Source: a virus (Duplodnaviria; Caudoviricetes). From it: 41,187 nt of DNA. Within the stretch, counting starts at the first letter, position 1. Every line of letters begins with the position of its first letter. The stretch covers positions 1 through 41,187 of IMG/VR virus record IMGVR_UViG_3300037722_000450; one strand, 5' to 3'. The notes under the pieces are model-generated. The model did not search any database, had not been told where the DNA came from, and saw nothing but the letters and a program-made list of their open reading frames with translations. The position numbers and the translations under genes are program-made. Positions 4,323-39,821 of this stretch are shown piece after piece.

Positions 4323-4741
4323 TGAGCCTACAGGCCGCTGTACTGTATCTCAATGATATAGTTGGGGCAATTTCAGGCATTAACGGTGCGCCCGATTACC
4401 CCACCGAATCGCAAGGCACATTTCCTTTTTCGATTTGCTATCCCGGCTCAGGGGAGTTTGAATGGGAACCTTACGAGGCGTTGCGGGGTCGGCACATTAT
4501 TAATCTAGAAGTCCATTTCAATCGCAGTAATTTGGCAAAAGCGATGAAAGAAATGCTTCCGATGGTTGAAGCAGTCCGCGATGTTCTCAAAACCGACCCC
4601 ACGTTAGGCGGGAATGTCGATACTATAATTGCCAGTGGTGGTCAGGCTATCACCTATACAACTGTTTATGTTGAAATTGGCGAGGTTAAAACCATCGCCT
4701 TAAGATTCCGAATACCAGTCAAAATCAAGGAAGGCACGTAA
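4322..4741 (+). CDS. Putative tail terminator
   Basis: DPTLGGNV motif, size, position before the major tail gene. Confidence 0.65.
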   Translation: MSLQAAVLYLNDIVGAISGINGAPDYPTESQGTFPFSICYPGSGEFEWEPYEALRGRHIINLEVHFNRSNLAKAMKEMLPMVEAVRDVLKTDPTLGGNVDTIIASGGQAITYTTVYVEIGEVKTIALRFRIPVKIKEGT

Positions 4742-24670: not shown

Positions 24671-25369
24671 ATGCAAGAAAAGGTTATCCGTATCATCTCG
24701 ATTGACCCCGGCAAGGCGACGGGCATTGCCAGCGCAGTCTACACGTTAACTCCTGAGAGCATCGGCATTCAGTTAGAAGATACGCTGTTTGTTGAGGCGG
24801 GGGATTACAAGAACGCCGGGACTTTAGAGCGCCATATGTATCAAGCTGTTGAGAATGTGGATAAATTACTCGATTTTATCTATGTAAGTTGCAAACAGAC
24901 TGAGACGATTTGGCTAGCGATTGAATCACCATTCGCATTACTCCGTAATCTCAATGGTGTACTCACTCAACAAGGTTATATTTCAGCAATCGCTATGCGG
25001 ATTATGAACCTAGAACCGCTTATTTCACTCAGTCGTTTCATGCTCATTAAGCCTGCAATGGTTAAGAAGATGGCCACTTCAAATGACACGCATCCTCTGA
25101 CCAGCGGTAATGGATTATCCGAAAAGCATCATGTAGCGCAGGCAATAGCTGATAAGTTTAATTTGTCGCAAGATGAGTTAAAAAACTTAACGACTAAACC
25201 CGATTCACGTTCTAAAAAGGCTGTATACGAAGTCACGGACGCGCTAGCCATCGGCTTCAGTTGCGCCCGAATCTTGCAAGCGGCGTGGTTCGGTCTAGAT
25301 CAGGACTTGCCCGTGCGCAAGGATACGAAGTCGTTACGTAAAAAAATCAGTGAATGGAGGCAAGCATAG
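24671..25369 (+). CDS. ruvC: RuvC-like Holliday junction resolvase
   Basis: ISIDPG..TG, AIES, P..VKK.AT, K..V, DALAI. Confidence 0.85.
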   Translation: MQEKVIRIISIDPGKATGIASAVYTLTPESIGIQLEDTLFVEAGDYKNAGTLERHMYQAVENVDKLLDFIYVSCKQTETIWLAIESPFALLRNLNGVLTQQGYISAIAMRIMNLEPLISLSRFMLIKPAMVKKMATSNDTHPLTSGNGLSEKHHVAQAIADKFNLSQDELKNLTTKPDSRSKKAVYEVTDALAIGFSCARILQAAWFGLDQDLPVRKDTKSLRKKISEWRQA

Positions 25370-25756: not shown

Positions 25757-26862
25757 TGATTAAGATAGAAAGCCTAACCAAAGAACAAAAAGCGCGTTTT
25801 CCTGAGTTTGTAGAAAAGTGGACAAAGATAGGTTTGTCCACTGAACCAGCTAATCGCTCAGAGGCCGAGCGCGGCGTTAACTTGGCATATGAACTTGCTG
25901 GATTAACACCTCCACAGCATATCGTATGGTGTGACTCGCCGCTAAGCATGACTATAACCCATGCAATCGGGGCTAGTGTCGGGGCTAGTGTCAGGGCTAG
26001 TGTCAGGGCTAGTGTCTGGGATAGTGTCAGGGCTAGTGTCGGGGCTAGTGTCAGGGCTAGTGTCGGGGCTAGTGTCGGGGCTAGTGTCGGGGCTAGTGTC
26101 GGGGCTAGTGTCAGGGCTAGTGTCAGGGCTAGTGTCGGGGCTAGTGTCGGGGCTAGTGTCGGGGCTAGTGTCGGGGCTAGTGTCAGGGCTAGTGTCTGGG
26201 ATAGTGTCGGGGCTAGTGTCAGGGCTAGTGTCAGGGCTAGTGTCTACGGACAACACGATGCGCACTGGCTTGGTTTTTTTGAATATTTCAATCAAGTATT
26301 GAACTTGCAAGCTGAAACTGAAAAGCTAGAAGGCTTGTGGCTCATTACACAACATGCAGGTTGGTGGCTACCTTGTGAGAATATATGCTTCATTAGTGAG
26401 CGTCACAACGTGTTAAATCTTGACGAATCAGGACGCTTACACGCAGTAGACCAACCTGCCTTGACTTATCCAGATGGTTTTTCAATTTATGCGTGGCATG
26501 GTGTGCGAGTGTCTGAAGATGTGATTATGAAACCTATCACATTTGAGCAAATCATGACTGAGCAAAACGCAGAAATCAAACGTGTGATGATTGAACGTTT
26601 TGGTGAAGATAAATTTGTTGAAAGTCTTGGCGGTGAACCCGTTGACGATAATCCTCAATTTGGCAAGCTGTATCGTATCGACTATGGTGATAGTGAGCCT
26701 CTAGTTCTAGTACGTGTCGAGTGTCCAAGTACAGGCCGTATCTATTTTAATCAGTGTCCGCCTGAGGATGATAATGGACAGCCGATATTACGCGCTAGGC
26801 AAGCGTTGGCATGGCGTTTTAGCTTATCTGAAGAAGAATATCTACCTATCGTCGAGTCCTAG
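25756..26862 (+). CDS. DUF6745-like protein with internal tetrapeptide repeat
   Basis: GQHDAHWL.F, GRLH...PA..YPDGF..YAWHGV, NAE.KRVMIE.FG, V.CPSTGR.Y. Confidence 0.85.
   Translation: MIKIESLTKEQKARFPEFVEKWTKIGLSTEPANRSEAERGVNLAYELAGLTPPQHIVWCDSPLSMTITHAIGASVGASVRASVRASVWDSVRASVGASVRASVGASVGASVGASVGASVRASVRASVGASVGASVGASVGASVRASVWDSVGASVRASVRASVYGQHDAHWLGFFEYFNQVLNLQAETEKLEGLWLITQHAGWWLPCENICFISERHNVLNLDESGRLHAVDQPALTYPDGFSIYAWHGVRVSEDVIMKPITFEQIMTEQNAEIKRVMIERFGEDKFVESLGGEPVDDNPQFGKLYRIDYGDSEPLVLVRVECPSTGRIYFNQCPPEDDNGQPILRARQALAWRFSLSEEEYLPIVES
25969..26244 (+). repeat. 23 x 12-bp tandem repeat, (G/A)GGGCTAGTGTC or TGGGATAGTGTC
   Basis: Direct count; encodes GASV/RASV/WDSV. Confidence 0.97.
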
Positions 26863-27421: not shown

Positions 27422-27720
27422 TGCGTAGACAAGACTTTTCGCGTCAACTTCAGGCGCGGAGCCTGTATGTAGAGCGCATGTATCGCGACAATGTAGATAT
27501 TCATGGCCTTGAGATCGAAGCTGAAAAACAAGCCGTGCGTCTCAATGATGATACGTCGCCCGATGCCCCTTTAAAATGGGATATGGTCAGTGGGCAGATG
27601 GCTACCGATTGCCCACGTAAAGGCTGGGAATTACTGAATTGGCAAGTGCATCATTTAGAGCAACGCCTTGATTTGCTGGGCTTCAGGATACAACCAAATA
27701 GATGGGAGACATTGAAATGA
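27421..27720 (+). CDS. Hypothetical protein
   Basis: RBS AGGAGG; TAATG coupling. Confidence 0.75.
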   Translation: MRRQDFSRQLQARSLYVERMYRDNVDIHGLEIEAEKQAVRLNDDTSPDAPLKWDMVSGQMATDCPRKGWELLNWQVHHLEQRLDLLGFRIQPNRWETLK

Positions 27721-27929
27721 CCACAACACGCAAGATTTGCCCCAATTGCCATGAATTGAATTATGCGAGTGCAGATGTATGCCCGAATTGCGGGTTGGGC
27801 GACGTTAAACGTCGCCCCGATTATGGCGCGAATATGCCGATGCCCCGCACCGCGCCCCGTGAATTTTATGAGAAACAAATGCGGGATTATCTAGCATGGC
27901 ACAAACGATTTTATCGTAAAAGCGAGTAA
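27717..27929 (+). CDS. Zinc-ribbon protein
   Basis: CPNC-x10-CPNCG; ATGA coupling. Confidence 0.7.
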   Translation: MTTTRKICPNCHELNYASADVCPNCGLGDVKRRPDYGANMPMPRTAPREFYEKQMRDYLAWHKRFYRKSE

Positions 27930-27966
27930 TTAAATCAGATAGGGAGTGCAACCGTACTCCCTACAG

Positions 27967-27980
27967 TCCTGACATCAGGA
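27967..27980. promoter_or_regulatory. 14-bp palindrome, copy 4
   Basis: TCCTGACATCAGGA, intergenic, reverse complement of copy 2. Confidence 0.65.
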
Positions 27981-27993
27981 AAAGGTAAATATC

Positions 27994-28251
27994 ATGATGA
28001 ATAACAGCACGAATAAGCCCAATTCCGATAATAAGCAGGCCATTTTAGGCCAACTTGAGTATGCGTATGAACGACGTGCCCTTGCGCAAGCCCAACTCCG
28101 CAATGTATGAGGATATAGTGCGATTAGTCACTATAATCAGGAAGTTGACCACTGGACTGTGCATATTCAGACATTAGAGGAAGCCTTAGCTAATTTAGAA
28201 CAAGAAGAGACGATTAATCAAGCCGAAACAGGCAATGAGGAGAGCGAGTGA
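27994..28251 (+). pseudogene. Small gene interrupted by in-frame TGA at 28108-28110
   Basis: RBS and ATG; frame continues past the stop to ...GNEESE* and couples (TGATG) to the next gene. Confidence 0.65.
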
Positions 28252-28550
28252 TGCGACTAATTGATTTACTCCGTGCAAGTTTATCGCCAGAAGAACGTTT
28301 TATTATGGAACAGATTGCCAATGGCAAGTTGCCACCTGAAGCCCTAACGAATTATCGAGAGACAATGGGTAAATCTAACGCTACAACAGGCAATGATAAA
28401 GAAGTTTTAGAGGCTTATCATTATGCGCGGGATTATGTGGTTTCCAGTGCGATTAGTGGACTGAGTGCAGGCGAATTGGAGTTAGTGGAATACTTCGATA
28501 TTCAGCAAGTACATGAAGATAGCCAACCTAAGCAATTAGGCTTATTCTAA
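28251..28550 (+). CDS. Hypothetical protein
   Basis: RBS GAGGAG; C-terminal QLGLF resembles a beta-clamp-binding motif. Confidence 0.7.
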   Translation: MRLIDLLRASLSPEERFIMEQIANGKLPPEALTNYRETMGKSNATTGNDKEVLEAYHYARDYVVSSAISGLSAGELELVEYFDIQQVHEDSQPKQLGLF

Positions 28551-28558
28551 GGAGTAGA

Positions 28559-28936
28559 ATGGATATGCAATTAAACGAAATTGGCAAAGCAACCCTAGTA
28601 ACCTTTGAAAAGCCGCGCAAGGTATATATAGGCACACTTGATTTTGCGTATGCTGAGCCATTATGGAAGTTTGATTATCTTTCCCCTGTCAATGCCGCCG
28701 CCGACCAAAATGGTGAATACAAAGTTTTTGCGCTATCTTTACGAGGCAAGCTAGCCCTTCGTGAAATAAACGTCGATTACGAATTAGAGATTCGACGTAA
28801 AATTTTTGAAGATGCCGAAAAAAAGGTGGCGGACAATCCTCTTTCTATAGATTGTGCCGTGGAAGCGTTACGTGAGGCAAATCGCTATATCAATGCATTA
28901 AAAGAATATATCCACAAATTGGAAAAGGGGAAATAG
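28559..28936 (+). CDS. Hypothetical protein
   Basis: RBS AAGGAG. Confidence 0.75.
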   Translation: MDMQLNEIGKATLVTFEKPRKVYIGTLDFAYAEPLWKFDYLSPVNAAADQNGEYKVFALSLRGKLALREINVDYELEIRRKIFEDAEKKVADNPLSIDCAVEALREANRYINALKEYIHKLEKGK

Positions 28937-28939
28937 ACG

Positions 28940-29092
28940 ATGAAATACATTAAATCATTCTTCCAACCAATTTATCACAATGGTAGGTTTGGATGTATTT
29001 GGATATGCCATGTATGCCACAATAAAGGCAAAATTAGTTAAGACATTGGCCACGATAGCGCCATGATGATTAGCCTAGAGGAGAGTGAATAG
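28940..29092 (+). pseudogene. Small CxxC gene with in-frame TAA at 29039-29041, or a 33-aa peptide
   Basis: MKYIKSFFQP...CHVCHNKGKIS*DIGHDSAMMISLEESE*. Confidence 0.45.
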
Positions 29093-29341
29093 ATGCCTAA
29101 CCCAACACCGCCTAAGTTACCTAATCAATTCTTCAATGCTCTCATTCGGATGCAACAGCAATTTGAGATTATGATAGGCGATGCGTTACAGGATGCTGTG
29201 CAAAGATTAAATGAATTTGCCGATGCCTATAAGCGTTTAGATCGTGAATATCGAGAGATTTATGGACTTGGCATTCATGAGTTTGTTGATTTAGGCAACT
29301 ATCTGATTGACTTTGATGATTTTAGAGATGGGAGTGAGTGA
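29093..29341 (+). CDS. Hypothetical protein
   Basis: RBS GAGGAG. Confidence 0.7.
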   Translation: MPNPTPPKLPNQFFNALIRMQQQFEIMIGDALQDAVQRLNEFADAYKRLDREYREIYGLGIHEFVDLGNYLIDFDDFRDGSE

Positions 29342-29499
29342 TGAAACACATCAAAATAACGTCCGTAGATTGGACTGACGAAGAAATCTTTGATTTGCTT
29401 AAACAGTTGCTCAAAGAAAATCCAGACGCTACAGGTTTTTCTGTCTATGGCAGTATGTGGCAAATTGAACCTGAAATAGAAATAATTGATATTGACTAG
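29341..29499 (+). CDS. Hypothetical protein, 52 aa (below cutoff)
   Basis: MKHIKITSVDWTDEEIFDLL...IDID*; TGATG coupling. Confidence 0.6.
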   Translation: MKHIKITSVDWTDEEIFDLLKQLLKENPDATGFSVYGSMWQIEPEIEIIDID

Positions 29500-29507
29500 G
29501 AGGCAAA

Positions 29508-29915
29508 ATGTATCAACAAATCACCATTATCGGCAATTGTGGCCGTGACCCAGAAATGCGCTATACCAATGAGGGCATTGGAGTATGTAATTTCTCCGTG
29601 GCCGTGAACAAACGCCGGAAGAATGCCAACACCGGGGAATATACCGACATTACCACATGGTTCAAGGTGGCCGCATGGCGGAATTTAGCCGAAACGTGTA
29701 GCCAATATGTGCATAAGGGCATGTTGGTTATGGTCGTCGGTGAAGTCAAAGTCGATCCTTATGTAGGGCAAGATGGGCAAGCGCGGGCTAGTCTGGAAAT
29801 TACCGCGTATGAGGTGAAGTTTTTGAGCAAGAGTGAACAAACTCAAAGCGAAACTAGCGAACAATCTAGTCATGACGAAGATGATTGGATTAATAACGAC
29901 GATATTCCGTTCTAG
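29508..29915 (+). CDS. ssb: Single-stranded DNA-binding protein
   Basis: IIGNCGRDPEMRYT, TTWF.V.AW, C-terminal DDIPF. Confidence 0.97.
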   Translation: MYQQITIIGNCGRDPEMRYTNEGIGVCNFSVAVNKRRKNANTGEYTDITTWFKVAAWRNLAETCSQYVHKGMLVMVVGEVKVDPYVGQDGQARASLEITAYEVKFLSKSEQTQSETSEQSSHDEDDWINNDDIPF

Positions 29916-29923
29916 GCAACCAG

Positions 29924-29951
29924 AATACTGATAACCGTAATTTTCACGACA
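29924..29951 (+). other. dif-like 11-6-11 site A
   Basis: AATACTGATAA-CCGTAA-TTTTCACGACA. Confidence 0.45.
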
Positions 29952-29964
29952 TTAGGAAAGGAAA

Positions 29965-30258
29965 ATGGGAATGAAAGATTTAGGACTACCGCCGCCTTCA
30001 TTAGAAGATTGGTTAGCCCTTCAATCAGAGCGTCTTGCCGATAGTTTAGTATTAAGTGCGCGAATCGAAGATAGTATAACTTACGCTAGCGAATGGGGAG
30101 GCTCAAGAGGTGCTCGGAAATTAAAGGAACTTCAACAACAGTCCGCAGAAATAGACAAAGTTCTATTCAGTATCAAGAATAGTTTTGACAGACTTTTAAT
30201 TGCACATCAAGCGGGCGAACGCATATTCCAAGATATTCCAGTAGAAAGTGAGGATTAG
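29965..30258 (+). CDS. Hypothetical protein (ends ESED)
   Basis: RBS AGGAAAGGA. Confidence 0.7.
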   Translation: MGMKDLGLPPPSLEDWLALQSERLADSLVLSARIEDSITYASEWGGSRGARKLKELQQQSAEIDKVLFSIKNSFDRLLIAHQAGERIFQDIPVESED

Positions 30259-30261
30259 ACA

Positions 30262-30573
30262 ATGGCTGAACAAAAAGACAATATGGTTAAAAGGTTATTC
30301 AGATGGTTGATCGGTAAGCTTTTGGGTGGGGATGCTTTTGCTCAAGAATATATAGAGCGCTTTATATTTCCAGTCCAACATGAACTTATTGACTTGGGTT
30401 TAACTTACACACAATCTAATGAACTAGCATCTATGGCGCTTACGTTAAGTTCACACTACCGCCCGTGGGGGTTTGTTTATCGCGACATGCGTGATGACAT
30501 AAAAGGAGGCATGAGTTATGACGATGTTATGCAAAAGGCACTGGATTTATTGGGGCGAGTAGAATCCCGATAA
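30262..30573 (+). CDS. Hypothetical protein
   Basis: Starts after a junction repeat; stop lies inside dif-like site B. Confidence 0.7.
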   Translation: MAEQKDNMVKRLFRWLIGKLLGGDAFAQEYIERFIFPVQHELIDLGLTYTQSNELASMALTLSSHYRPWGFVYRDMRDDIKGGMSYDDVMQKALDLLGRVESR

Positions 30574-30590
30574 GTGATAATATCACGGCA
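30563..30590 (+). other. dif-like 11-6-11 site B
   Basis: AATCCCGATAA-GTGATA-ATATCACGGCA; 24/33 identical to site A with flanks. Confidence 0.45.
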
Positions 30591-30655
30591 TTATCCAACT
30601 GTTGCATTTTTTGCAACAGTTCAGAATGGTTCAGAAATGAGAAAAGAGGATTGAA

Positions 30656-30961
30656 ATGAATAAACAATCAATGCTTGTCACCTTGCTTCAAGAGTGTATG
30701 CCTATTGAGGCGCGTATTATTGATGTTAAATATTATCGCAAACTACAGCCAAAACGATACATAGATTATAAGACTGGCTGGTTCGTAGATTTCAGGATAG
30801 GCACAATAAATCATAGTCTGTATCTAGGCCGCAATTTTAATATTGCCTATGAAGCAGTTAAAAGAATTTATTCTATTTCTCCTACATATGATGAGTTACA
30901 ACTTAAGAATGGCTCATGGGTACGGTTTTATATGTGGGATAGAGTTCGGGCGTTAGAATAG
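30656..30961 (+). CDS. Hypothetical protein
   Basis: RBS GAGGA. Confidence 0.7.
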   Translation: MNKQSMLVTLLQECMPIEARIIDVKYYRKLQPKRYIDYKTGWFVDFRIGTINHSLYLGRNFNIAYEAVKRIYSISPTYDELQLKNGSWVRFYMWDRVRALE

Positions 30962-30975
30962 AAAGCGAGGATTAG

Positions 30976-31275
30976 ATGAGTGGCGGAAGTTTCAACTATG
31001 CGCTGTACAAAGCTGATTCAACTGAGATATTTCAGGGACTAGAAGATTATAAGGCAATTGAGCAGTTCCTACGCGATAACGGCAAGCAAGAAGCCGCCAA
31101 CGAAGTACAGAAATTCATACTAGCACTTGAAACTGCGTTCAATCGCCTGATGGTACATGGCGAATATGTCAAGCCTTTGCTCAGAGCGGCGGAATGGTGG
31201 GCTAGCGGGGATAGTGGTGCGGATGGTGTTGATTATGCAATGGGCATGTTAACGGGTGAAGAAAGTGAGGATTAG
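30976..31275 (+). CDS. Hypothetical protein (MSGGSFNY type; ends ESED)
   Basis: MSGGSFNY start, EWW.SGD.G.D. Confidence 0.75.
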   Translation: MSGGSFNYALYKADSTEIFQGLEDYKAIEQFLRDNGKQEAANEVQKFILALETAFNRLMVHGEYVKPLLRAAEWWASGDSGADGVDYAMGMLTGEESED

Positions 31276-31278
31276 ACG

Positions 31279-31581
31279 ATGAAACTAGCCCGATTTGCGG
31301 TCTATGATGACAACGAATACGAACTTGAATTAGGTCAAGCCCCAATACCGCGCAACCAATTAGAGGGATTGCTCTATCACATCTGTCATGGCCTGATTAT
31401 GCGTTATCCACTGTGGAAAGTTTTAGCATGGTCATGGATTCACCGAAAGTCATTTCAGGAAGCCGAAACGGTGCTAGATTTGACTGCATTAGCTGATATT
31501 GATGATACGTCACTGAGTGTTGACGACGAACACCTTATACACGAATGGACTGGTCATGCTGACTGGATAAGAGAGGACTAA
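31279..31581 (+). CDS. Hypothetical protein
   Basis: Starts after a junction repeat; ends RED*. Confidence 0.7.
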   Translation: MKLARFAVYDDNEYELELGQAPIPRNQLEGLLYHICHGLIMRYPLWKVLAWSWIHRKSFQEAETVLDLTALADIDDTSLSVDDEHLIHEWTGHADWIRED

Positions 31582-31584
31582 CCC

Positions 31585-31731
31585 ATGAACCACTTATTCA
31601 CCCACCTAATCGCTTTTTTGTGCGGAGGTGCATTTACGTTAATTGTCAGCACGATTCTATTATTGAATTGGGCACTCAGCGACAAATTCAAAGAACAACG
31701 CCAACGCACTCAACAAGATAAAGGCGCGTAA
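31585..31731 (+). CDS. Small membrane protein, 48 aa (below cutoff)
   Basis: MNHLFTHLIAFLCGGAFTLIVSTILLLNWALS...; RBS GAGGA. Confidence 0.6.
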   Translation: MNHLFTHLIAFLCGGAFTLIVSTILLLNWALSDKFKEQRQRTQQDKGA

Positions 31732-31733
31732 CC

Positions 31734-32027
31734 ATGCCCAAACGTAACGCAAATTGGTTTGACAAGACAGGGCGCTATATGATACTGAATGCCAAGATAT
31801 TCAATACATCTAAAGCGTTCCCGATGTCAGGACAAGACCCCCACCCGAATCAGGCTATTTATGATGTGATCTTAGAGGCGATTGAAAGCGCCCGGTGGCG
31901 TGACCCAGACATCACCAAAACTGAGGTAGTGCTAGGGGCATTATATGGGTGGGCACTCTGGGAACTTGCAGAGAAGCCGATGCCACTACCGACGGATGAT
32001 AATGGAAATATGGAAAGTGAGGATTAG
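31734..32027 (+). CDS. Hypothetical protein (ends ESED)
   Basis: ORF; RBS AAGG. Confidence 0.7.
   Translation: MPKRNANWFDKTGRYMILNAKIFNTSKAFPMSGQDPHPNQAIYDVILEAIESARWRDPDITKTEVVLGALYGWALWELAEKPMPLPTDDNGNMESED
31819..31832. promoter_or_regulatory. 14-bp palindrome, copy 5
   Basis: TCCCGATGTCAGGA. Confidence 0.6.
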
Positions 32028-32028
32028 C

Positions 32029-32262
32029 ATGGTAAAGATTAACATGGATAAAAACAAACTTGAAGAAGCGTTAGAACGAGTGCGTGAAACAATTGAACAA
32101 AGATTAAAGGAAGAAACTGTTCAAAGGGCACGAGATATTCAAGACGAACTCATACTAGAGCTTAAGGCATCCCACCGCCATTACATGGCTGTATATGCGT
32201 CAATTCCGCCGCATATACGGAAAACCGTTATGCGAATGCTTGATGAAGAAAGCGAGGATTAA
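32029..32262 (+). CDS. Hypothetical helical protein (ends ESED)
   Basis: ATG directly after a junction repeat. Confidence 0.7.
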   Translation: MVKINMDKNKLEEALERVRETIEQRLKEETVQRARDIQDELILELKASHRHYMAVYASIPPHIRKTVMRMLDEESED

Positions 32263-32263
32263 C

Positions 32264-32749
32264 ATGGAAACTAGAGAAACAATTCACGAATTAACAAAAT
32301 TGGCCTATGCACTTGTGGCCTATTGCGCATGGTGGGAAGTGAAACTCATTGCAGATAAACTGCAATCTGAATATGGCATTGAAATCACAGGCGTACATGC
32401 TTCAAAGATTGAAAATAATGTGCGTAAAGTGTCCAGTAAGGGAACAATCTATTTTAAAGGCTACCCTTGCCATATTTCGGTTAGCTATAACTATGATACC
32501 CTATCAGATGAAATGCTGGCCCACAGGGATAATATTCGTGAATTAACCAATTGTGAGTGGCTTATTCAAAGTGAATTTAGGCAGATAGACCCGGTAAGCA
32601 ATTGGCGACCCGACGATGTGCCCAGTAGACCTAGTATTAAGCGCAATATCTCGATAACGATTGAGAATAAGACGAAAACGAGCTTACTAAAACAACTCGA
32701 CACCCTCAAACAAATCATTGAAGCTGAGTTTGCCGAAAGCGAGGATTAG
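32264..32749 (+). CDS. Hypothetical protein (ends ESED)
   Basis: ATG directly after a junction repeat. Confidence 0.75.
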   Translation: METRETIHELTKLAYALVAYCAWWEVKLIADKLQSEYGIEITGVHASKIENNVRKVSSKGTIYFKGYPCHISVSYNYDTLSDEMLAHRDNIRELTNCEWLIQSEFRQIDPVSNWRPDDVPSRPSIKRNISITIENKTKTSLLKQLDTLKQIIEAEFAESED

Positions 32750-32754
32750 CCACC

Positions 32755-33009
32755 ATACCAGAACCCAACGACAACGAATCTAACAAAGATGTTGATAAAC
32801 CGACATCTGAAGATGTTGCACTCGACATTCAATTACCACCTAATACAGCCGATGTGTTAAAGGCGCTCAGAGAAGCCAGCCGACGCATAGTGGAAAAGAC
32901 TGCTAAACACCCACAGGTTAAACAGTGGAAGGGTATCGACATAGGTATCCCAATTACTGAGAGACGCGCTAAACGACGTAAGCGTAAGACAGCTAATAAG
33001 TTAGGATAA
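32755..33009 (+). pseudogene. 84-codon ORF with ATA start (mutated or non-canonical start)
   Basis: IPEPNDNESNKDV...RRAKRRKRKTANKLG* fills the gap, 9 nt after GAGGA. Confidence 0.55.
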
Positions 33010-33022
33010 AGGATAAAAGCCG

Positions 33023-33241
33023 ATGCCAGAATCAAAGAAGCCGCCCGACTATGAGTATATTCAATTGGATATTTCACTTAAGCAAAGAGATGCCCAGCGC
33101 GCCTTTGAATATATCCGTGAACGTTTAGTTGAAAGGTTAGTGATAGAAGCTAAAGCCAAGAAACCACTAACGCCTAGGATAAGTGACGCTGTGCTAGCAT
33201 ACTCTGTATATATTGCAACCAAAGGCATAGACACAGACTAG
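33023..33241 (+). CDS. Hypothetical protein
   Basis: RBS AAGGA. Confidence 0.7.
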   Translation: MPESKKPPDYEYIQLDISLKQRDAQRAFEYIRERLVERLVIEAKAKKPLTPRISDAVLAYSVYIATKGIDTD

Positions 33242-33351: not shown

Positions 33352-33449
33352 AGCCCCACTGGTTGCTGATACTTACACACTAACAAGACAAAGCTCCCTC
33401 CTACCCAGATAGCCAACTGAAAGCCCTAACCAGTGGGGCTTTTTCTTTT
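33352..33449 (+). ncRNA. Structured RNA / terminator closing the early region
   Basis: 13-bp inverted repeat AGCCCCACTGGTT/AACCAGTGGGGCT plus T tract; internal CTCCCTCCT. Confidence 0.45.
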
Positions 33450-34105
33450 CCATATCCCAACCACCTATCCCTATAGCCTGCATTGCCCTCATTTTTTAGG
33501 GGGGGGTATAGGTCCACGTCTGCAATATTTTTAATAGGGGGTAGGGGTCATTGCTCAGAATTAATTTAATCAATAGGGTAGGGTATAGGATGCCAATAAA
33601 AAAAAGGGGGTAGGGTACTGGGTAACTTTGAAACATGGGGCATGTTAACGCTGGGTGTTAAGAATTAGGCGATTGATTGATGGGAAGGGCTATGTGAAAG
33701 GGAGTGTGACATTTTAGGGGAGGGGATGATTGAATGGGATGGAATGTAGATTCGTGATAATGACAGAGTAAACAAGGTGATGGGATACAGTGTATTCGTT
33801 TTTTTATAAGCCACCCCTGCCTCTCCCAAATTTTGACGGGGGGGGGTCTATACTGTGCTATTCTGGTCTGTGTGATAGACTAGTTTGTGATAGAATAAAG
33901 TGAAAACGATTGATTATTGCGTTAGTTTCCTGATAAACTACATTATCACGAATCTAAAAGCGCAATTCCAGTCAAGTCGAAAAAACGGGGCTAGGGGGTG
34001 CTCGATTCAACATAAGACTTTTTCCCACAAGTGGGGGGTCGGTGTCAAAAATTACGAGGATAAAATTTTGATGAAGTCTACAACAGTTGACACTAAGGAA
34101 AACTA
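33450..34105. other. Large non-coding region upstream of the packaging operon (candidate cos/pac or origin)
   Basis: G tracts, repeated AGGG(GG)TAGGG(G)T, 16-bp inverted repeat, dif-like site. Confidence 0.55.
33926..33953. other. dif-like 11-6-11 site C (near-palindromic)
   Basis: TTTCCTGATAA-ACTACA-TTATCACGAAT. Confidence 0.5.
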
Positions 34106-34786
34106 ATGGAACTTGATTTCGACTTCGATGATCTACAACCCGACTTCGATTTTGACGATTTGCACATTGAAGGCGACACCCAAGCCGAATCGCAGAAACC
34201 GAAGCCTCCTAAGCAAACGTATGCTTTATATCAAAAGGCGCTTAAGCGTAGCCAACGCCGCATTCTGAAACGGGCATCCTTGCGGAGCGAATTAGCGCAT
34301 TTGCCGGAAAAGGGCGAAACGCTTCATATCATTGGCGAGGGTACATATGACTTTTTCACATGGATTCCCGTTATTCAAGATATTTTAGGTACACCGATTA
34401 CACTCTATGCCAGCACATGGACAATGAATAGACCGAACGTCGTTGAGTTATTCGAGTTATTCGATATAGGTAAATTGTCGAGCGTCAATATGTTAACTGG
34501 TTTGTACTTCAAACAACGCGAATCGTCGGTATTTTCGGCGCTCATTACGGGGATGCGCAAGCGTGGGCAACGTTACGGAGCATTTAAAAATCACACTAAG
34601 ATTACCTTGATTACCAATGGGGATATTTATTTAGTTATTGAAGGTAGCGCCAATTTTACGAGTAATCCGCGAGCCGAACAATATATTTTGACCAATGACC
34701 AAACAACTTATGACTTCTTTCAGAATTGGTTTGACGAGATGTTAACCACTTATGCTTTGATAGGATATGACAATGCCACTGAGTGA
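34106..34786 (+). CDS. Phospholipase D-like (HxK) nuclease-fold protein
   Basis: NHTKITLI...IEGSANFT. Confidence 0.8.
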   Translation: MELDFDFDDLQPDFDFDDLHIEGDTQAESQKPKPPKQTYALYQKALKRSQRRILKRASLRSELAHLPEKGETLHIIGEGTYDFFTWIPVIQDILGTPITLYASTWTMNRPNVVELFELFDIGKLSSVNMLTGLYFKQRESSVFSALITGMRKRGQRYGAFKNHTKITLITNGDIYLVIEGSANFTSNPRAEQYILTNDQTTYDFFQNWFDEMLTTYALIGYDNATE

Positions 34787-35234
34787 AGAACAAATCGCTA
34801 TTGCGATAAAAGCCAAGGCGGGGAATATATCGGCGGTGGCGCGTGATTTAGAAGTTTCGCGTCAAGCAATTTACAACTATCTGGATGAATATCCTCGATT
34901 AAAGGAATTGGTTGCTGATACCCGTGAAGAATTAGTTGATATTGCCGAAAGTGCCGCCCGGCGGGAAATCATCAACGGTAATACCGCCATGATTATTTAT
35001 ACGCTCAAAACTCAAGGTCGGCATCGCGGCTGGCAAGAAAAGGTGTCCCTTGAACTCAGTAGCGAGGCGTGGGTGTTATTGCCTAAACTGGCAAAAGCCT
35101 TAGAAGCGCAGGGGGTGGCTTTAGAGGATGTGTTGACGGCCATGCTGAGTGAAATCAATTCACGGGGTACTGAAGAAATAGCCCTGTTGCCTGATGTGGT
35201 AGAGGGGGAAGTATCAAATGTCAGTGAGTCCTAA
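34767..35234 (+). CDS. terS: Terminase small subunit (putative, Fis-like HTH)
   Basis: GNISAVARDLEVSRQAIYNY; IYTLKTQGR.RGW.E; directly before TerL. Confidence 0.75.
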   Translation: MTMPLSEEQIAIAIKAKAGNISAVARDLEVSRQAIYNYLDEYPRLKELVADTREELVDIAESAARREIINGNTAMIIYTLKTQGRHRGWQEKVSLELSSEAWVLLPKLAKALEAQGVALEDVLTAMLSEINSRGTEEIALLPDVVEGEVSNVSES

Positions 35235-37524: not shown

Positions 37525-38348
37525 TGACCCATCGGCGACGGGCGCTAGCGGCGGGGATTGTGGGGGGTGGTGGTGGTGGTGTTACGCTGTTGACGATGCA
37601 AACCACGAGCGTTACCCCCACCACGTTCGACCCAGTGTTAACGCTCGCAGGGGGTGCGCCTACGCCTGAGTGGGACATGGGCGATGGTACACAGTTGACA
37701 GGCGCGAGTATCTCGCATACGTATGCGGACGCGGGGACGAAGACGGTGACGTTGGGGCCAGCGTCGTTGTATGAGTATGTGACGGTATTGGATATTAGAA
37801 TAGATAATTTAACAGTGTTAGACGCGGCTCCATTGGTGAATTTAACGATACTAAATTGTGCCGCCAACAGTATCAGCGTGTTAGAGGTTGGTGCGTTGGT
37901 AAATTTAAATCAACTGTATTGCGACTCTAACAGTATCAGCGTGTTAAATGCGGCTCCATTGGTAAATTTAACGATACTGCGTTGCTACTCTAACAGTATC
38001 AGCGCGTTAGAGGTTGGCACGCTGGTAAATTTGACGCGACTACTGTGCTACTCTAACAGTATCAGCGCGTTAGAGGTTGGGGCGTTAACTGAATTGGACG
38101 ATTTCCAATGTCAAGACAATGGTATGACGCAATCCGAGGTGGACACGATTATTGATGATATATATACGAATCGTGCCAACTATACCAGCGCTACGCCTAG
38201 CATGAATATCGGCGGCACAAACGCCGCGCCAAGTGGCACATATCAATACAGCGCCACGCCTTCAACTGGTAAAGAGAAGATTTATGCGCTGGTGAATGAT
38301 GACGATGGCGAGCTTTTTAACACATGGACGATAACGTTTTCAGCATGA
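37524..38348 (+). CDS. PKD-like domain plus 21-aa leucine-rich-repeat protein
   Basis: WDMGDGT..SHTYADAGTKTV; LxxLxCxxNxIxxL repeats. Confidence 0.88.
   Translation: MTHRRRALAAGIVGGGGGGVTLLTMQTTSVTPTTFDPVLTLAGGAPTPEWDMGDGTQLTGASISHTYADAGTKTVTLGPASLYEYVTVLDIRIDNLTVLDAAPLVNLTILNCAANSISVLEVGALVNLNQLYCDSNSISVLNAAPLVNLTILRCYSNSISALEVGTLVNLTRLLCYSNSISALEVGALTELDDFQCQDNGMTQSEVDTIIDDIYTNRANYTSATPSMNIGGTNAAPSGTYQYSATPSTGKEKIYALVNDDDGELFNTWTITFSA
37785..38095 (+). repeat. About five 63-bp tandem repeats encoding LRRs
   Basis: AACAGTATCAGCG at 37866, 37929, 37992, 38055. Confidence 0.9.
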
Positions 38349-39127
38349 TTTTAAATAGTGAAGATATTCTAATCCTAACCATACTAGTAGAACAACGATG
38401 GAATGGCAGGAACAAAAGTAGATATATTGAGCTTGGATATAAATTCACAAAGATTGGTGATGCTTTTCAGGTTTCAATTGAACATTTAAGTCATGGTTCG
38501 CGGGCGAAGGTTTTAGTGGCTTGTCCTGATTGTGGTGAGCAAAGAGAAATGGCTTACAGCAATATATTAAAACATAATTCGACACGTTGTAGGAAATGCG
38601 CCAACTTCAAAGCAACTTTTAACGATTTATCCAGCAAACGCTTTGGACGATTAATAGTAATTGAATGTGGCGAGCTAAAAAATAGTCAATATACATGGAA
38701 ATGTCTGTGTGATTGTGGCAGGGAATTATATGTGCGCAGTGCGGATTTAACTAGAGGGAAAAGCACATCTTGTGGGTGTAAGCGCGATGAATATGTTGCA
38801 TCATTGCAATACAGAGTTGGTAAGAGACATCCTAATTGGAAGGATATTTCAGAAGCGGAGCGCAGGAAAAGGCGAGATCACAAATCATCTCTATTAAGAG
38901 AAAAATGTTTCAAGCGGGATGATTATACTTGTTTATCCTGCTCAAGACGGGGTGGCGATTTAGAAGCACATCATTTGTATGATTGGGCTTCATATCCAGA
39001 CATGCGGTATACCCTAGAAAATATTGTCACTCTTTGCGTTGTGTGCCACAGAAATTTTCATACTTGGACAGAGACATGCAATCCTGAGATGTTCTTGGGA
39101 TGGAAGAATATAGAGCGAGGAAGTTAA
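38345..39127 (+). CDS. Free-standing HNH endonuclease with Zn-finger DNA-binding modules
   Basis: RFGRL..WKCLCDCG..STSCGC; RDDYTC..C...LEAHH...N.VTLC..CH..FH. Confidence 0.9.
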   Translation: MILNSEDILILTILVEQRWNGRNKSRYIELGYKFTKIGDAFQVSIEHLSHGSRAKVLVACPDCGEQREMAYSNILKHNSTRCRKCANFKATFNDLSSKRFGRLIVIECGELKNSQYTWKCLCDCGRELYVRSADLTRGKSTSCGCKRDEYVASLQYRVGKRHPNWKDISEAERRKRRDHKSSLLREKCFKRDDYTCLSCSRRGGDLEAHHLYDWASYPDMRYTLENIVTLCVVCHRNFHTWTETCNPEMFLGWKNIERGS

Positions 39128-39128
39128 C

Positions 39129-39338
39129 ATGCCAGTTTATTATCTGATAGTAGGTAACAGAATCAAGCAGGAAATTGACACCGCCGATGGTGACGTTACC
39201 GCGTTGCCGATACTTGATAGTGCGCGGGCGGTATCACTACTGAATCGTCAGCATGTGATTGCGCTGATGAATAACGAGGGATGGACAGCGCAACAAGTCA
39301 TCGACAAGTTGGGTTTAGTGGATGAGCGTGAGGTTTAA
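39129..39338 (+). CDS. Hypothetical protein
   Basis: RBS GAGGA. Confidence 0.7.
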   Translation: MPVYYLIVGNRIKQEIDTADGDVTALPILDSARAVSLLNRQHVIALMNNEGWTAQQVIDKLGLVDEREV

Positions 39339-39821
39339 ATGACTATCCTATTCGGCTTATTCCTACTCTTTGGCACTGGCATTGTAGATTGCATAGGCAT
39401 AGAGCCTGCCTTCATGCTGATTTATCAGGATAAATACTATTGGGATGCGTTGCCTGATGATTTTATCACCTTAGAAGGCCAGCAAGTCGAGTGGTTAGGC
39501 TATGCGCCCCGCGATATTCCTTATTACTGGCTATTAGAGCGTCAAGGTGTTGAGTATGGTTTTAAAGGTATCAACTTAGATTTACTTGAACCTCTAGCCA
39601 TTATCCACTTGTATGATATGGATGGCATCACCTATGAACGCTTTACGATTAGCGCCTATGGTGATGGGTATTTCATTACTGAGACAAGCTTAGGGGAATT
39701 TGGGCGTTCAGATGGCACAGCTTATGATTATCACATATTGGCAAATCCTACAGGTGGGGCGTGTATGTGGTTAGTTGAGGATATAGGCTTGGGTTGGTTA
39801 GAGCTAGATAAAAGAGGTTAA
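39339..39821 (+). CDS. Hypothetical protein with hydrophobic N-terminus
   Basis: MTILFGLFLLFGTGIVDC; RBS GAGG. Confidence 0.7.
   Translation: MTILFGLFLLFGTGIVDCIGIEPAFMLIYQDKYYWDALPDDFITLEGQQVEWLGYAPRDIPYYWLLERQGVEYGFKGINLDLLEPLAIIHLYDMDGITYERFTISAYGDGYFITETSLGEFGRSDGTAYDYHILANPTGGACMWLVEDIGLGWLELDKRG

What the first reader, a model, noticed from the sequence alone, without database searches (positions are those of the whole stretch)
30244..32749. Array of unrelated small genes joined by a 15-nt stop+RBS junction (GAAAGYGAGGATTAR, 'ESED*')
Seen: six copies (30244, 30961, 31261, 32013, 32248, 32735), each exactly at a gene boundary. Five are translated as the C-terminus ESED* of otherwise unrelated proteins, and each supplies the GAGGA Shine-Dalgarno for the next ORF. 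The 30961 copy lies after an out-of-frame stop, so conservation is at DNA level and is not a peptide tag alone. Degenerate forms end neighbouring ORFs (KSE* 27929, EESE* 28251 and 29092, GSE* 29341, RED* 31581, GAAAAGAGGATTGA 30641). Inference: an integrase-free, integron-like cassette array in which recombination at the junction adds, removes or swaps whole translationally coupled genes. Boundary repeats are known in other phages; I do not recognise this motif.
Basis: partly seen in the sequence, partly recalled or inferred. Interest (0 to 1): 0.85.

Follow-up and report, generated by a model that had tools for sequence, protein, structure and literature searches.

The report
Shared stop-start linker between phage genes
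In an uncultured sediment phage, one 15-base stretch ends six small genes and likely serves as the next gene's ribosome-binding site, and close relatives carry or lack whole genes at this stretch, so it likely acts as a shared linker for occasional gene gain and loss, a known kind of phage mosaicism rather than a new integron-like system.

Summary
The repeat is real: 6 exact copies and none with 1-2 mismatches, against 0.36 expected. Ten of its 15 bases are predicted to pair with an extended 16S tail of the likely Chloroflexota host, and three more are the stop. Relatives show a nested series g7-g8-g9-g10 / g7-g9-g10 / g7-g10, rejoined at the motif. None of 129 homologues of g4 ends in ESE[DE]. 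So whole genes do come and go at the junction.

It is not integron-like. There is no integrase, resolvase or attC-type hairpin. All five motif-free junctions nearby also carry breakpoints. The copies share only 8-18 identical bases, below published pairing minima. The same 15-mer is a common stop/start junction in unrelated phages, where swapping is not significantly higher than at neighbouring junctions.

Verdict: a new, short example of the known boundary/linker or start-associated sequences. A word search of this scan's earlier findings returned 18 of this kind on other genomes.

The parts
30244..30258 (+). Junction copy 1 (g1/g2), ESED*, ATG 3 nt later; no breakpoint seen here
30961..30975 (+). 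Junction copy 2 (g3/g4), not translated as ESED; left homology edge with L119/X5 at 30960
31261..31275 (+). Junction copy 3 (g4/g5); X3 and X9 carry different upstream DNA from 31264
32013..32027 (+). Junction copy 4 (g7/g8)
32248..32262 (+). Junction copy 5 (g8/g9), TAA form; X6 joins g7 directly to it
32735..32749 (+). Junction copy 6 (g9/g10); L119 and X5 join g7 directly to it
30640..30654 (+). Degenerate junction AGAAAAGAGGATTGA before g3; homology edge in X6
29965..30258 (+). g1, 97 aa, no family, ends ESED*
30262..30573 (+). g2, 103 aa, no family
30656..30961 (+). g3, 101 aa, no family; absent from L119 with its own RBS (5-nt AGAAA overlap at the start of copy 2)
30976..31275 (+). g4, 99 aa, phrog_6724 (unknown function), ends ESED*; 0 of 129 homologues share the tail
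31279..31581 (+). g5, 100 aa, ends RED*; C-terminus replaced in L119/X5
31585..31731 (+). g6, 48 aa, hydrophobic; no motif after it
31734..32027 (+). g7, 97 aa, ends ESED*; a second allele ends AESESED* in L119, X5 and X6
32029..32262 (+). g8, 77 aa, ends ESED*; absent in X6, L119 and X5
32264..32749 (+). g9, 161 aa, ends ESED*; present in X6, absent in L119 and X5; no homologue beyond its own cluster
32755..33009 (+). g10, 84 aa; ATA start in the window, ATG in relatives
28237..28251 (+). Second junction class GAGGAGAGYGARTRR (EESE*), copy a
29078..29092 (+). Second junction class, copy b; X3 joins 28396 to 29092 through a hybrid of this class

Best explanation
The 15-mer is a repeated gene-junction sequence that holds a stop codon and a predicted strong ribosome-binding site, and it likely also serves as a passive short-homology linker at which whole accessory genes are occasionally gained or lost. 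Shown: six exact copies at gene boundaries in the accessory region before the packaging genes, and related phages whose gene content differs at these copies. Predicted: (A)GAAAG-Y-GAGG pairs with the host's extended 16S 3' tail with Y bulged. The stop and the 0-5-nt gap to the next start would then couple translation by termination-reinitiation; ESED is a by-product of this spelling. Inferred: a generic, low-frequency process (replication slippage, single-strand annealing, or host or unrecognised phage recombination at 14-18 identical bases) joins two copies. Because a copy-to-copy join keeps both a stop and an RBS, such products are viable and survive, and each insertion duplicates the junction. 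The linker is not required, because neighbouring motif-free junctions are also swapped.
For: Nested series: window g7-g8-g9-g10; X6 g7-g9-g10 (joint 32004->32248); L119 and X5 g7-g10. X6 and L119 share the same g7 allele and differ by exactly g9, across the 14 bases shared by copies 5 and 6. X3 and X9 switch inside copy 3. X3 joins two copies of the second junction class. 6 of 13 hand-listed homology edges fall within -10/+20 of a copy against 5.8% of positions. 0 of 129 g4 homologues end in ESE[DE]. Fixed codons are unlikely under a peptide-only constraint (0.06 per copy, 1.3e-5 for four more). The six starts rank 2nd-7th of 59 in predicted pairing with the 15-nt tail. In unrelated phages the same 15-mer precedes an ATG in 77 of 116 and 88 of 119 loci against a 16.5% background, and some pairs share one side and differ on the other at the motif. 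Precedents: PMC2839356, PMC3029335, PMC3203893.
Against: The copies share only 8-18 identical bases, below the minimal efficient pairing lengths of 31-34 bp for RecA and 23-27 bp for Red-beta (PMC3945230). No RecT, Erf, Rad52 or AAA_24 match was found in the record, so the enzyme is unidentified. 7 of 13 edges are not at a copy, and one of the 6 counted (31279 in X6) is a case where the motif is not kept. All 5 motif-free junctions also show an edge within about 25 nt. In unrelated phages, partner switching is 9 of 34 at the motif against 4 of 30 at the next motif-free junction (p = 0.23). Copy 1 shows no edge. With a 13-nt tail the pairing advantage shrinks (14 of 53 other starts are as strong), and the host's true 16S end is untested. 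The direction (gain or loss) is unknown.
Confidence: 0.62

Rival explanations
1. Pure translation signal. The repeat is a favoured stop plus extended Shine-Dalgarno spelling kept by selection for strong coupled expression. Breakpoints fall there only because random illegitimate recombinants survive when they break at gene boundaries.
For: 13 of 15 bases are explained by predicted anti-SD pairing and the stop. The motif arose in many unrelated phages, mostly as single copies (63 of 78 and 57 of 80 loci of 3 kb or more have one copy at up to 2 mismatches). Motif-free junctions break too (5 of 5). No significant excess of switching in unrelated phages (p = 0.23).
Against: Six exact copies with no 1-2-mismatch copies suggests copying rather than a selection gradient. 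X6 and L119 differ by exactly g9 between copies 5 and 6, with no filler. A second junction class shows the same kind of join.
Confidence: 0.25
2. Integron-like or other site-specific system: a dedicated recombinase (phage-encoded and unrecognised, or from the host) recognises the 15-mer and excises or inserts cassettes.
For: Tandem promoterless single-gene units in one orientation; high sequence uniformity; nested precise indels. Several genes of the record have no family match.
Against: No PF00589 or PF00239 match. The motif is non-palindromic, with no inverted repeat at any copy. Edges scatter (30960, 31264, 32004) instead of one fixed crossover base. The sequence is explained by RBS plus stop and is shared by unrelated phages.
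Confidence: 0.05
3. Peptide tag: the acidic C-terminal ESED is selected at protein level (for example against C-terminal proteolysis, or as a docking tail), and the DNA repeat is secondary.
For: Five of six copies are in frame, and the two variable bases are both synonymous positions. Related tails (ESEE, ESED) are in frame in most copies of unrelated arrays.
Against: Copy 2 is out of frame in the window and follows non-coding DNA in L119. Codons are fixed far beyond codon usage. 0 of 129 g4 homologues have the tail. The variable Y is also the predicted bulged base of the SD duplex.
Confidence: 0.05
4. The rearranged forms are assembly mis-joins at the repeat.
For: All variants are contigs, not long reads. 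Some have low depth (X6 4.5; X9 2.5).
Against: The longest identity between copies is 18 nt, shorter than the usual assembly word (31 for Logan, recalled). The g7-g10 form occurs in an IMG/VR contig and in run X5 at depth 18.4 (these may be one strain). The 31264 switch occurs in two studies. The joined forms carry their own alleles.
Confidence: 0.03

Closest known systems
Boundary/linker sequences of phage modular evolution (Susskind and Botstein, Botstein, as summarised in PMC2839356 Discussion; 'short conserved boundary sequences', refs 21-22 of PMC3029335; originals not read), with Island3 gene 68 and LRRHood genes 43-46 as examples (PMC3029335, passages and section 13)
   Same: A short direct repeat at gene 3' ends gives unrelated proteins a shared C-terminus. 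Relatives have one copy where this phage has two flanking extra genes. No dedicated recombinase.
   Different: Much shorter (14-18 nt against 29 and about 50-60 bp), six copies in 2.5 kb, and the repeat is itself a predicted extended SD plus stop.
Start-associated sequences (SAS) of Cluster K mycobacteriophages (PMC3203893, passages)
   Same: An asymmetric 13-15-bp repeat in one orientation, confined to non-structural genes, a few bases before ATG, containing an SD core and rare in the host (here 0 exact and 2 one-mismatch sites in 5 surrogate genomes).
   Different: Different sequence. Here most bases are explained by rRNA pairing plus a stop, whereas SAS has conserved non-pairing positions. 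No ESAS-type inverted repeats. Gene gain and loss at the site is seen here.
PeSL cassettes of T4-type phages RB49/phi1 (PMC2839356, abstract and Discussion)
   Same: Repeated expression signals in a variable region act as sites for gain, loss and swap of ORFans without an integrase. The authors also compare them with integrons.
   Different: PeSLs are promoter plus stem-loop units, and mini-circles were shown. This is a translation junction with no promoter or hairpin, and circles were not seen.
Translational coupling by termination-reinitiation (PMC10666635 abstract; PMC6728339 search listing only)
   Same: Stop and next start lie 0-5 nt apart, with the SD inside the upstream gene.
   Different: Those papers find -4/-1 overlaps most common. 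Coupling was not measured here.
Integron cassette arrays (attC, IntI; features recalled)
   Same: Tandem promoterless single genes in one orientation, separated by a repeat.
   Different: No integrase, no attC hairpin and no fixed crossover point; exchange also occurs at other junctions.

Membership tests
Integron / attC array | Tyrosine recombinase IntI in or near the array | tested here: not met
   No PF00589 match in the record; none in PHROG/Pfam scans of 63 ORFs. The record is circularly closed by a 169-nt end repeat, though CheckV lists 51% completeness.
Integron / attC array | Imperfect-palindrome attC sites that fold into a hairpin | tested here: not met
   No inverted repeat at any copy; no Rfam match in the window.
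Integron / attC array | Single fixed crossover point | tested here: not met
   Edges at 30960, 31264, 32004, 32248 and 32735 fall at different offsets from the motif.
Phage boundary/linker sequence | Short conserved direct repeat at gene boundaries | tested here: met
Phage boundary/linker sequence | Relatives differ by whole genes between copies or switch at a copy | tested here: met
   g8, g9 and g8+g9 indels; switch at 31264
Phage boundary/linker sequence | Exchange is driven by homology at the repeat and exceeds the general gene-boundary effect | tested here: inconclusive
   Enriched over random positions but not over motif-free junctions; identity is below the published minimal pairing lengths
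Start-associated sequence (SAS) | Asymmetric repeat, one orientation, just upstream of starts of non-structural genes, with SD core, rare in host | tested here: met
   (the host genomes are surrogates chosen by SSB similarity)
Start-associated sequence (SAS) | The Cluster K consensus GGGATAGGAGCCC and ESAS inverted repeats | tested here: not met
   Different sequence; no flanking inverted repeats
PeSL cassette | Consensus promoter plus terminator stem-loop in each repeat | tested here: not met
   Promoter-like hits at chance level (14 against 16.8) and no stem-loop at the copies
PeSL cassette | Excised mini-circles | not testable with these tools
   Only contigs were available; no back-joints were listed in 8 runs, which does not show absence
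Translational coupling junction | Downstream translation depends on upstream termination | not testable with these tools
   The geometry fits (0-5 nt); needs a reporter assay

The most novel reading that the evidence does not exclude
GAAAGYGAGG(A)-stop-ATG is a cross-phylum 'universal connector'. Because the 16S tail is nearly invariant, unrelated phages converge on the same junction. That junction then lets them exchange ready-to-express small genes through only 10-18 bases of identity, possibly with an as yet unrecognised short-homology annealing protein. Arrays of 7-9 such junctions in unrelated low-GC phages (L044, L166) would be the same system.
Probability: 0.12. Interest if true: 0.7.

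Novelty: new member of a known kind. Interest (0 to 1): 0.36.

Why it matters
It gives a compact natural test case for the long debate on whether phage mosaicism comes from recombination at short boundary homologies or from random breaks filtered by selection: three nested gene orders rejoined at a 14-nt identity, next to motif-free junctions that serve as controls. It also shows that such a linker can be largely dictated by ribosome pairing and a stop codon, so the same linker can arise independently in unrelated phages. It is not a new recombination system.

Tried and rejected
Searches for relatives: terminase and g4 in viral contigs found only the one contig. g5 and a 21-nt conserved pattern in metagenome contigs found nothing. 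The capsid protein in genome contigs found nothing. GenBank phages gave only chance 27-29-nt hits. No look-alike earlier finding in relatives. No RNA holder was listed; this is no evidence on expression.

Homopolymer-error idea for copy 2 (a lost A hiding an in-frame ESED): rejected.

Recombinase hunt: no integrase, resolvase, RecT, Erf, Rad52 or AAA_24. The Atlas look-ups of two orphans before the replication initiator were uninformative. ORF 24671-25369 looks RuvC-like to my eye (recalled motifs) but had no family or PDB match, and its single-sequence model was unusable (pLDDT 36).

Excluded edges: short X9 and X4 matches with both ends loose (for example X9 32223-32258) were treated as other organisms' DNA and left out of the edge list. 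X3 record 16 and X4 record 24, which end at copy 6 with 30 and 8 unlaid letters, were also left out because their loose letters were not shown. Only 8 of the 18 listed runs were laid (X2-X9).

Literature: three five- or six-term searches and one four-term search returned no papers, and one returned an irrelevant paper. No search used the motif's own letters, so 'not described in print' is not claimed. No supplementary files were read; SAS tables or PeSL lists there would not change the membership calls.
Full report
Setting. The window is a whole phage record of 41,187 bases, closed by a 169-nt end repeat; CheckV lists it as 51% complete. Nearly all genes lie on the + strand: HK97-type head, siphovirus-type tail, replication initiator, DnaB, SSB and terminase. 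Runs holding the region are sediment and soil metagenomes. The SSB's best matches are Aggregatilineales and Anaerolineae (60% and 56%), so the host is likely Chloroflexota (inference). The repeat lies in a run of small genes between SSB and the packaging genes. I label them g1 29965-30258, g2 30262-30573, g3 30656-30961, g4 30976-31275, g5 31279-31581, g6 31585-31731, g7 31734-32027, g8 32029-32262, g9 32264-32749, g10 32755-33009 and g11 33023-33241. Only g4 has a family match (phrog_6724, unknown function).

Observation. GAAAGYGAGGATTAR occurs six times, all on the + strand, with no copy at one or two mismatches; shuffles give 0.36. It occupies 6 of the 10 junctions from g1 to g11. Five copies are in-frame ESED* ends; copy 2 overlaps g3's out-of-frame stop. 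Two other runs reproduce that frame without gaps, so it is not a homopolymer error. Copy 6 is followed by ATA in the window but ATG in L119, X6 and X8. The motif is not the general RBS: the best match upstream of any of the other 59 starts is 12 of 15. The looser tail AGY-GAR-(GAT)-stop ends 9 of 17 genes starting in 27700-32300 and 0 of 48 others (range chosen after the fact).

What the sequence encodes. I read the 16S end of two surrogate Chloroflexota genomes. With a 15-nt tail, (A)GAAAG and GAGG pair around a bulged Y at -12.0 to -12.5 kcal/mol, and only 1 of 53 other starts is as strong. With a 13-nt tail the figure is -8.1 and 14 of 53 are as strong. The mature end was not determined. 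Ten bases are thus predicted SD and three are the stop, and the two variable positions are the bulge and the stop's last base. Given ESED*, the observed codons have probability 0.06 per copy (1.3e-5 for four further copies). None of 129 g4 homologues ends in ESE[DE] (also P0002 and P0003). The constraint is therefore on nucleotides, and the peptide is a by-product (inference). Start codons follow 0-5 nt after the stop, within the short distances that allow termination-reinitiation (PMC10666635, abstract); coupling itself is untested.

Relatives. One IMG/VR contig (L119, 14.5 kb, 88-99% identical in shared blocks) and 8 of 18 listed runs were compared. At the motif:
(a) L119 and X5 join g7 directly to copy 6 and g10, lacking g8 and g9.
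(b) X6 joins the same g7 allele to copy 5 and g9, lacking only g8. X6 and L119 therefore differ by exactly g9 across the 14 bases shared by copies 5 and 6. That g7 allele diverges from the window 9 nt before copy 4 and carries a tandem GAAAGY, which suggests slippage (inference).
(c) X3 and X9, from two studies, carry other DNA upstream of position 31264, inside copy 3.
(d) L119 and X5 lack g3 and its RBS, with a 5-nt overlap at the start of copy 2.
A second junction class, GAGGAGAGYGARTRR (2 copies in the window, 3 in L119), shows the same behaviour: X3 joins 28396 to 29092 through a hybrid copy.

Against a motif-specific process. Homology edges also occur at 29955, 30640, 31568, 31709, 31716, 31734 and 32987. 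In X6, g5 begins without copy 3 in front of it. Outside the array there are edges at an 8-nt GGCAATGA overlap (28389-28396), inside SSB (29704), and at 34078, 36766 and 37587. Six of 13 hand-listed edges in 29900-33100 lie within -10/+20 of a copy against 5.8% of positions (binomial 4.6e-5). These edges are not independent, however, and 5 of 6 motif junctions against 5 of 5 motif-free junctions show an edge within about 25 nt (hand-entered tally). The whole region is mosaic at gene boundaries. What is special to the motif is that the clean whole-gene indels of g8 and g9 run copy to copy.

The same junction elsewhere. None of the others resembles the window. An ATG follows within 0-7 nt in 77 of 116 and 88 of 119 (background 16.5%), and 51 and 64 are also in-frame ESED* ends; these loci include many close relatives of one another. 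Most loci hold one copy (63 of 78 and 57 of 80 loci of 3 kb or more). L044 has 9 and L166 has 7 GAAAGYGAGG sites, mostly ending small genes in ESEE, ESED or a similar tail. Some unrelated phage pairs switch partners exactly at the 15-mer (for example L059/L195, L032/L181, L152/L201). My control, however, shows 9 of 34 multi-member classes switching at the motif against 4 of 30 at the next motif-free junction (p = 0.23).

Machinery. There is no match for integrase, resolvase, RecT, Erf, Rad52 or AAA_24, and no hairpin, promoter excess or Rfam family at the copies. Copies share 8-18 identical bases, under the 31-34 bp (RecA) and 23-27 bp (Red-beta) minima quoted in PMC3945230 (passages). Efficient homologous recombination is therefore unlikely. 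Slippage or annealing at microhomology, followed by selection for joins that keep a stop and an RBS, fits best (inference). Mis-assembly is unlikely because the repeats are shorter than typical assembly words (recalled) and the joined forms recur.

Comparison. It works like the boundary or linker sequences of modular phage evolution: Island3 gene 68 (about 50-60 bp shared 3' end) and LRRHood genes 43-46 (29-bp repeats) in PMC3029335 (passages and section 13), and PeSL cassettes in PMC2839356 (abstract and Discussion). In layout it resembles the Cluster K start-associated sequences (PMC3203893, passages). It fails the defining tests for integrons and PeSLs. A word search of this scan's earlier findings returned 18 findings in at least 18 genomes, and the 8 shown were junction-repeat arrays. 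They are unchecked notes, and I used them only for leads to papers.

Verdict. It is a new member of a known kind. Confidence: stop plus extended-SD junction acting as a passive linker 0.62; translation signal only 0.25; site-specific system 0.05; peptide tag 0.05; assembly artefact 0.03. Interest 0.36.

Noticed in passing
window 27994-28251 and 28940-29092: Two small ORFs each have an in-frame internal stop (TGA, TAA) before an EESE* tail; L119 has the same stops. They could be broken genes, readthrough or pairs of tiny ORFs.
   Followed up: partly
window 30597-30621; L119 about 4521-4545: A perfect 10-bp hairpin with a TTTTT loop; L119 has the same stem with an AAAAA loop (loop inverted), and its mid-SSB deletion ends at this hairpin, leaving SSB truncated and frameshifted.
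   Followed up: partly
window 28251-28550; L119 2139-3367: The window gene is a fusion of a 52-aa and a 192-aa L119 gene across an 8-nt GGCAATGA overlap, with 921 bp (two whole genes and most of a third) missing. In L119 two successive genes end in the same TGNEESE* sequence.
   Followed up: yes
window 29930-29948, 30570-30590, 33911-33930: Three similar GATAA...TCACG stretches upstream of gene groups, seen by eye; possibly an operator or promoter element. A strict pattern recovered only the first.
   Followed up: partly
window 25919-26290: 12-bp tandem repeat (ASVG/ASVR) inside a DUF6745 gene.
   Followed up: no
window 37815-38129 and 37587-39722: A 63-bp repeat in a PKD/LRR-like gene and an HNH gene lie between terminase and portal; this block is replaced by other genes in L119.
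   Followed up: no
window 34106-35234; L119 6605-7144: The N-terminal part of the small terminase subunit is swapped between relatives, and the window carries an extra endonuclease-like gene (phrog_16945) in front of it.
   Followed up: no
window 24671-25369: Orphan with RuvC-like motifs by eye (recalled); no family, PDB or usable model support.
   Followed up: partly
L044 (9 sites), L166 (7 sites), L066 and L152 (4 sites each): Unrelated low-GC phages with arrays of GAAAGYGAGG-stop-ATG junctions, mostly ending small genes in ESEE, ESED or a similar tail.
   Followed up: partly
window 33352-33440: 13-bp perfect inverted repeat, 63 nt apart, overlapping a terminator-like hairpin at the end of the early region; conserved in L119.
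   Followed up: no
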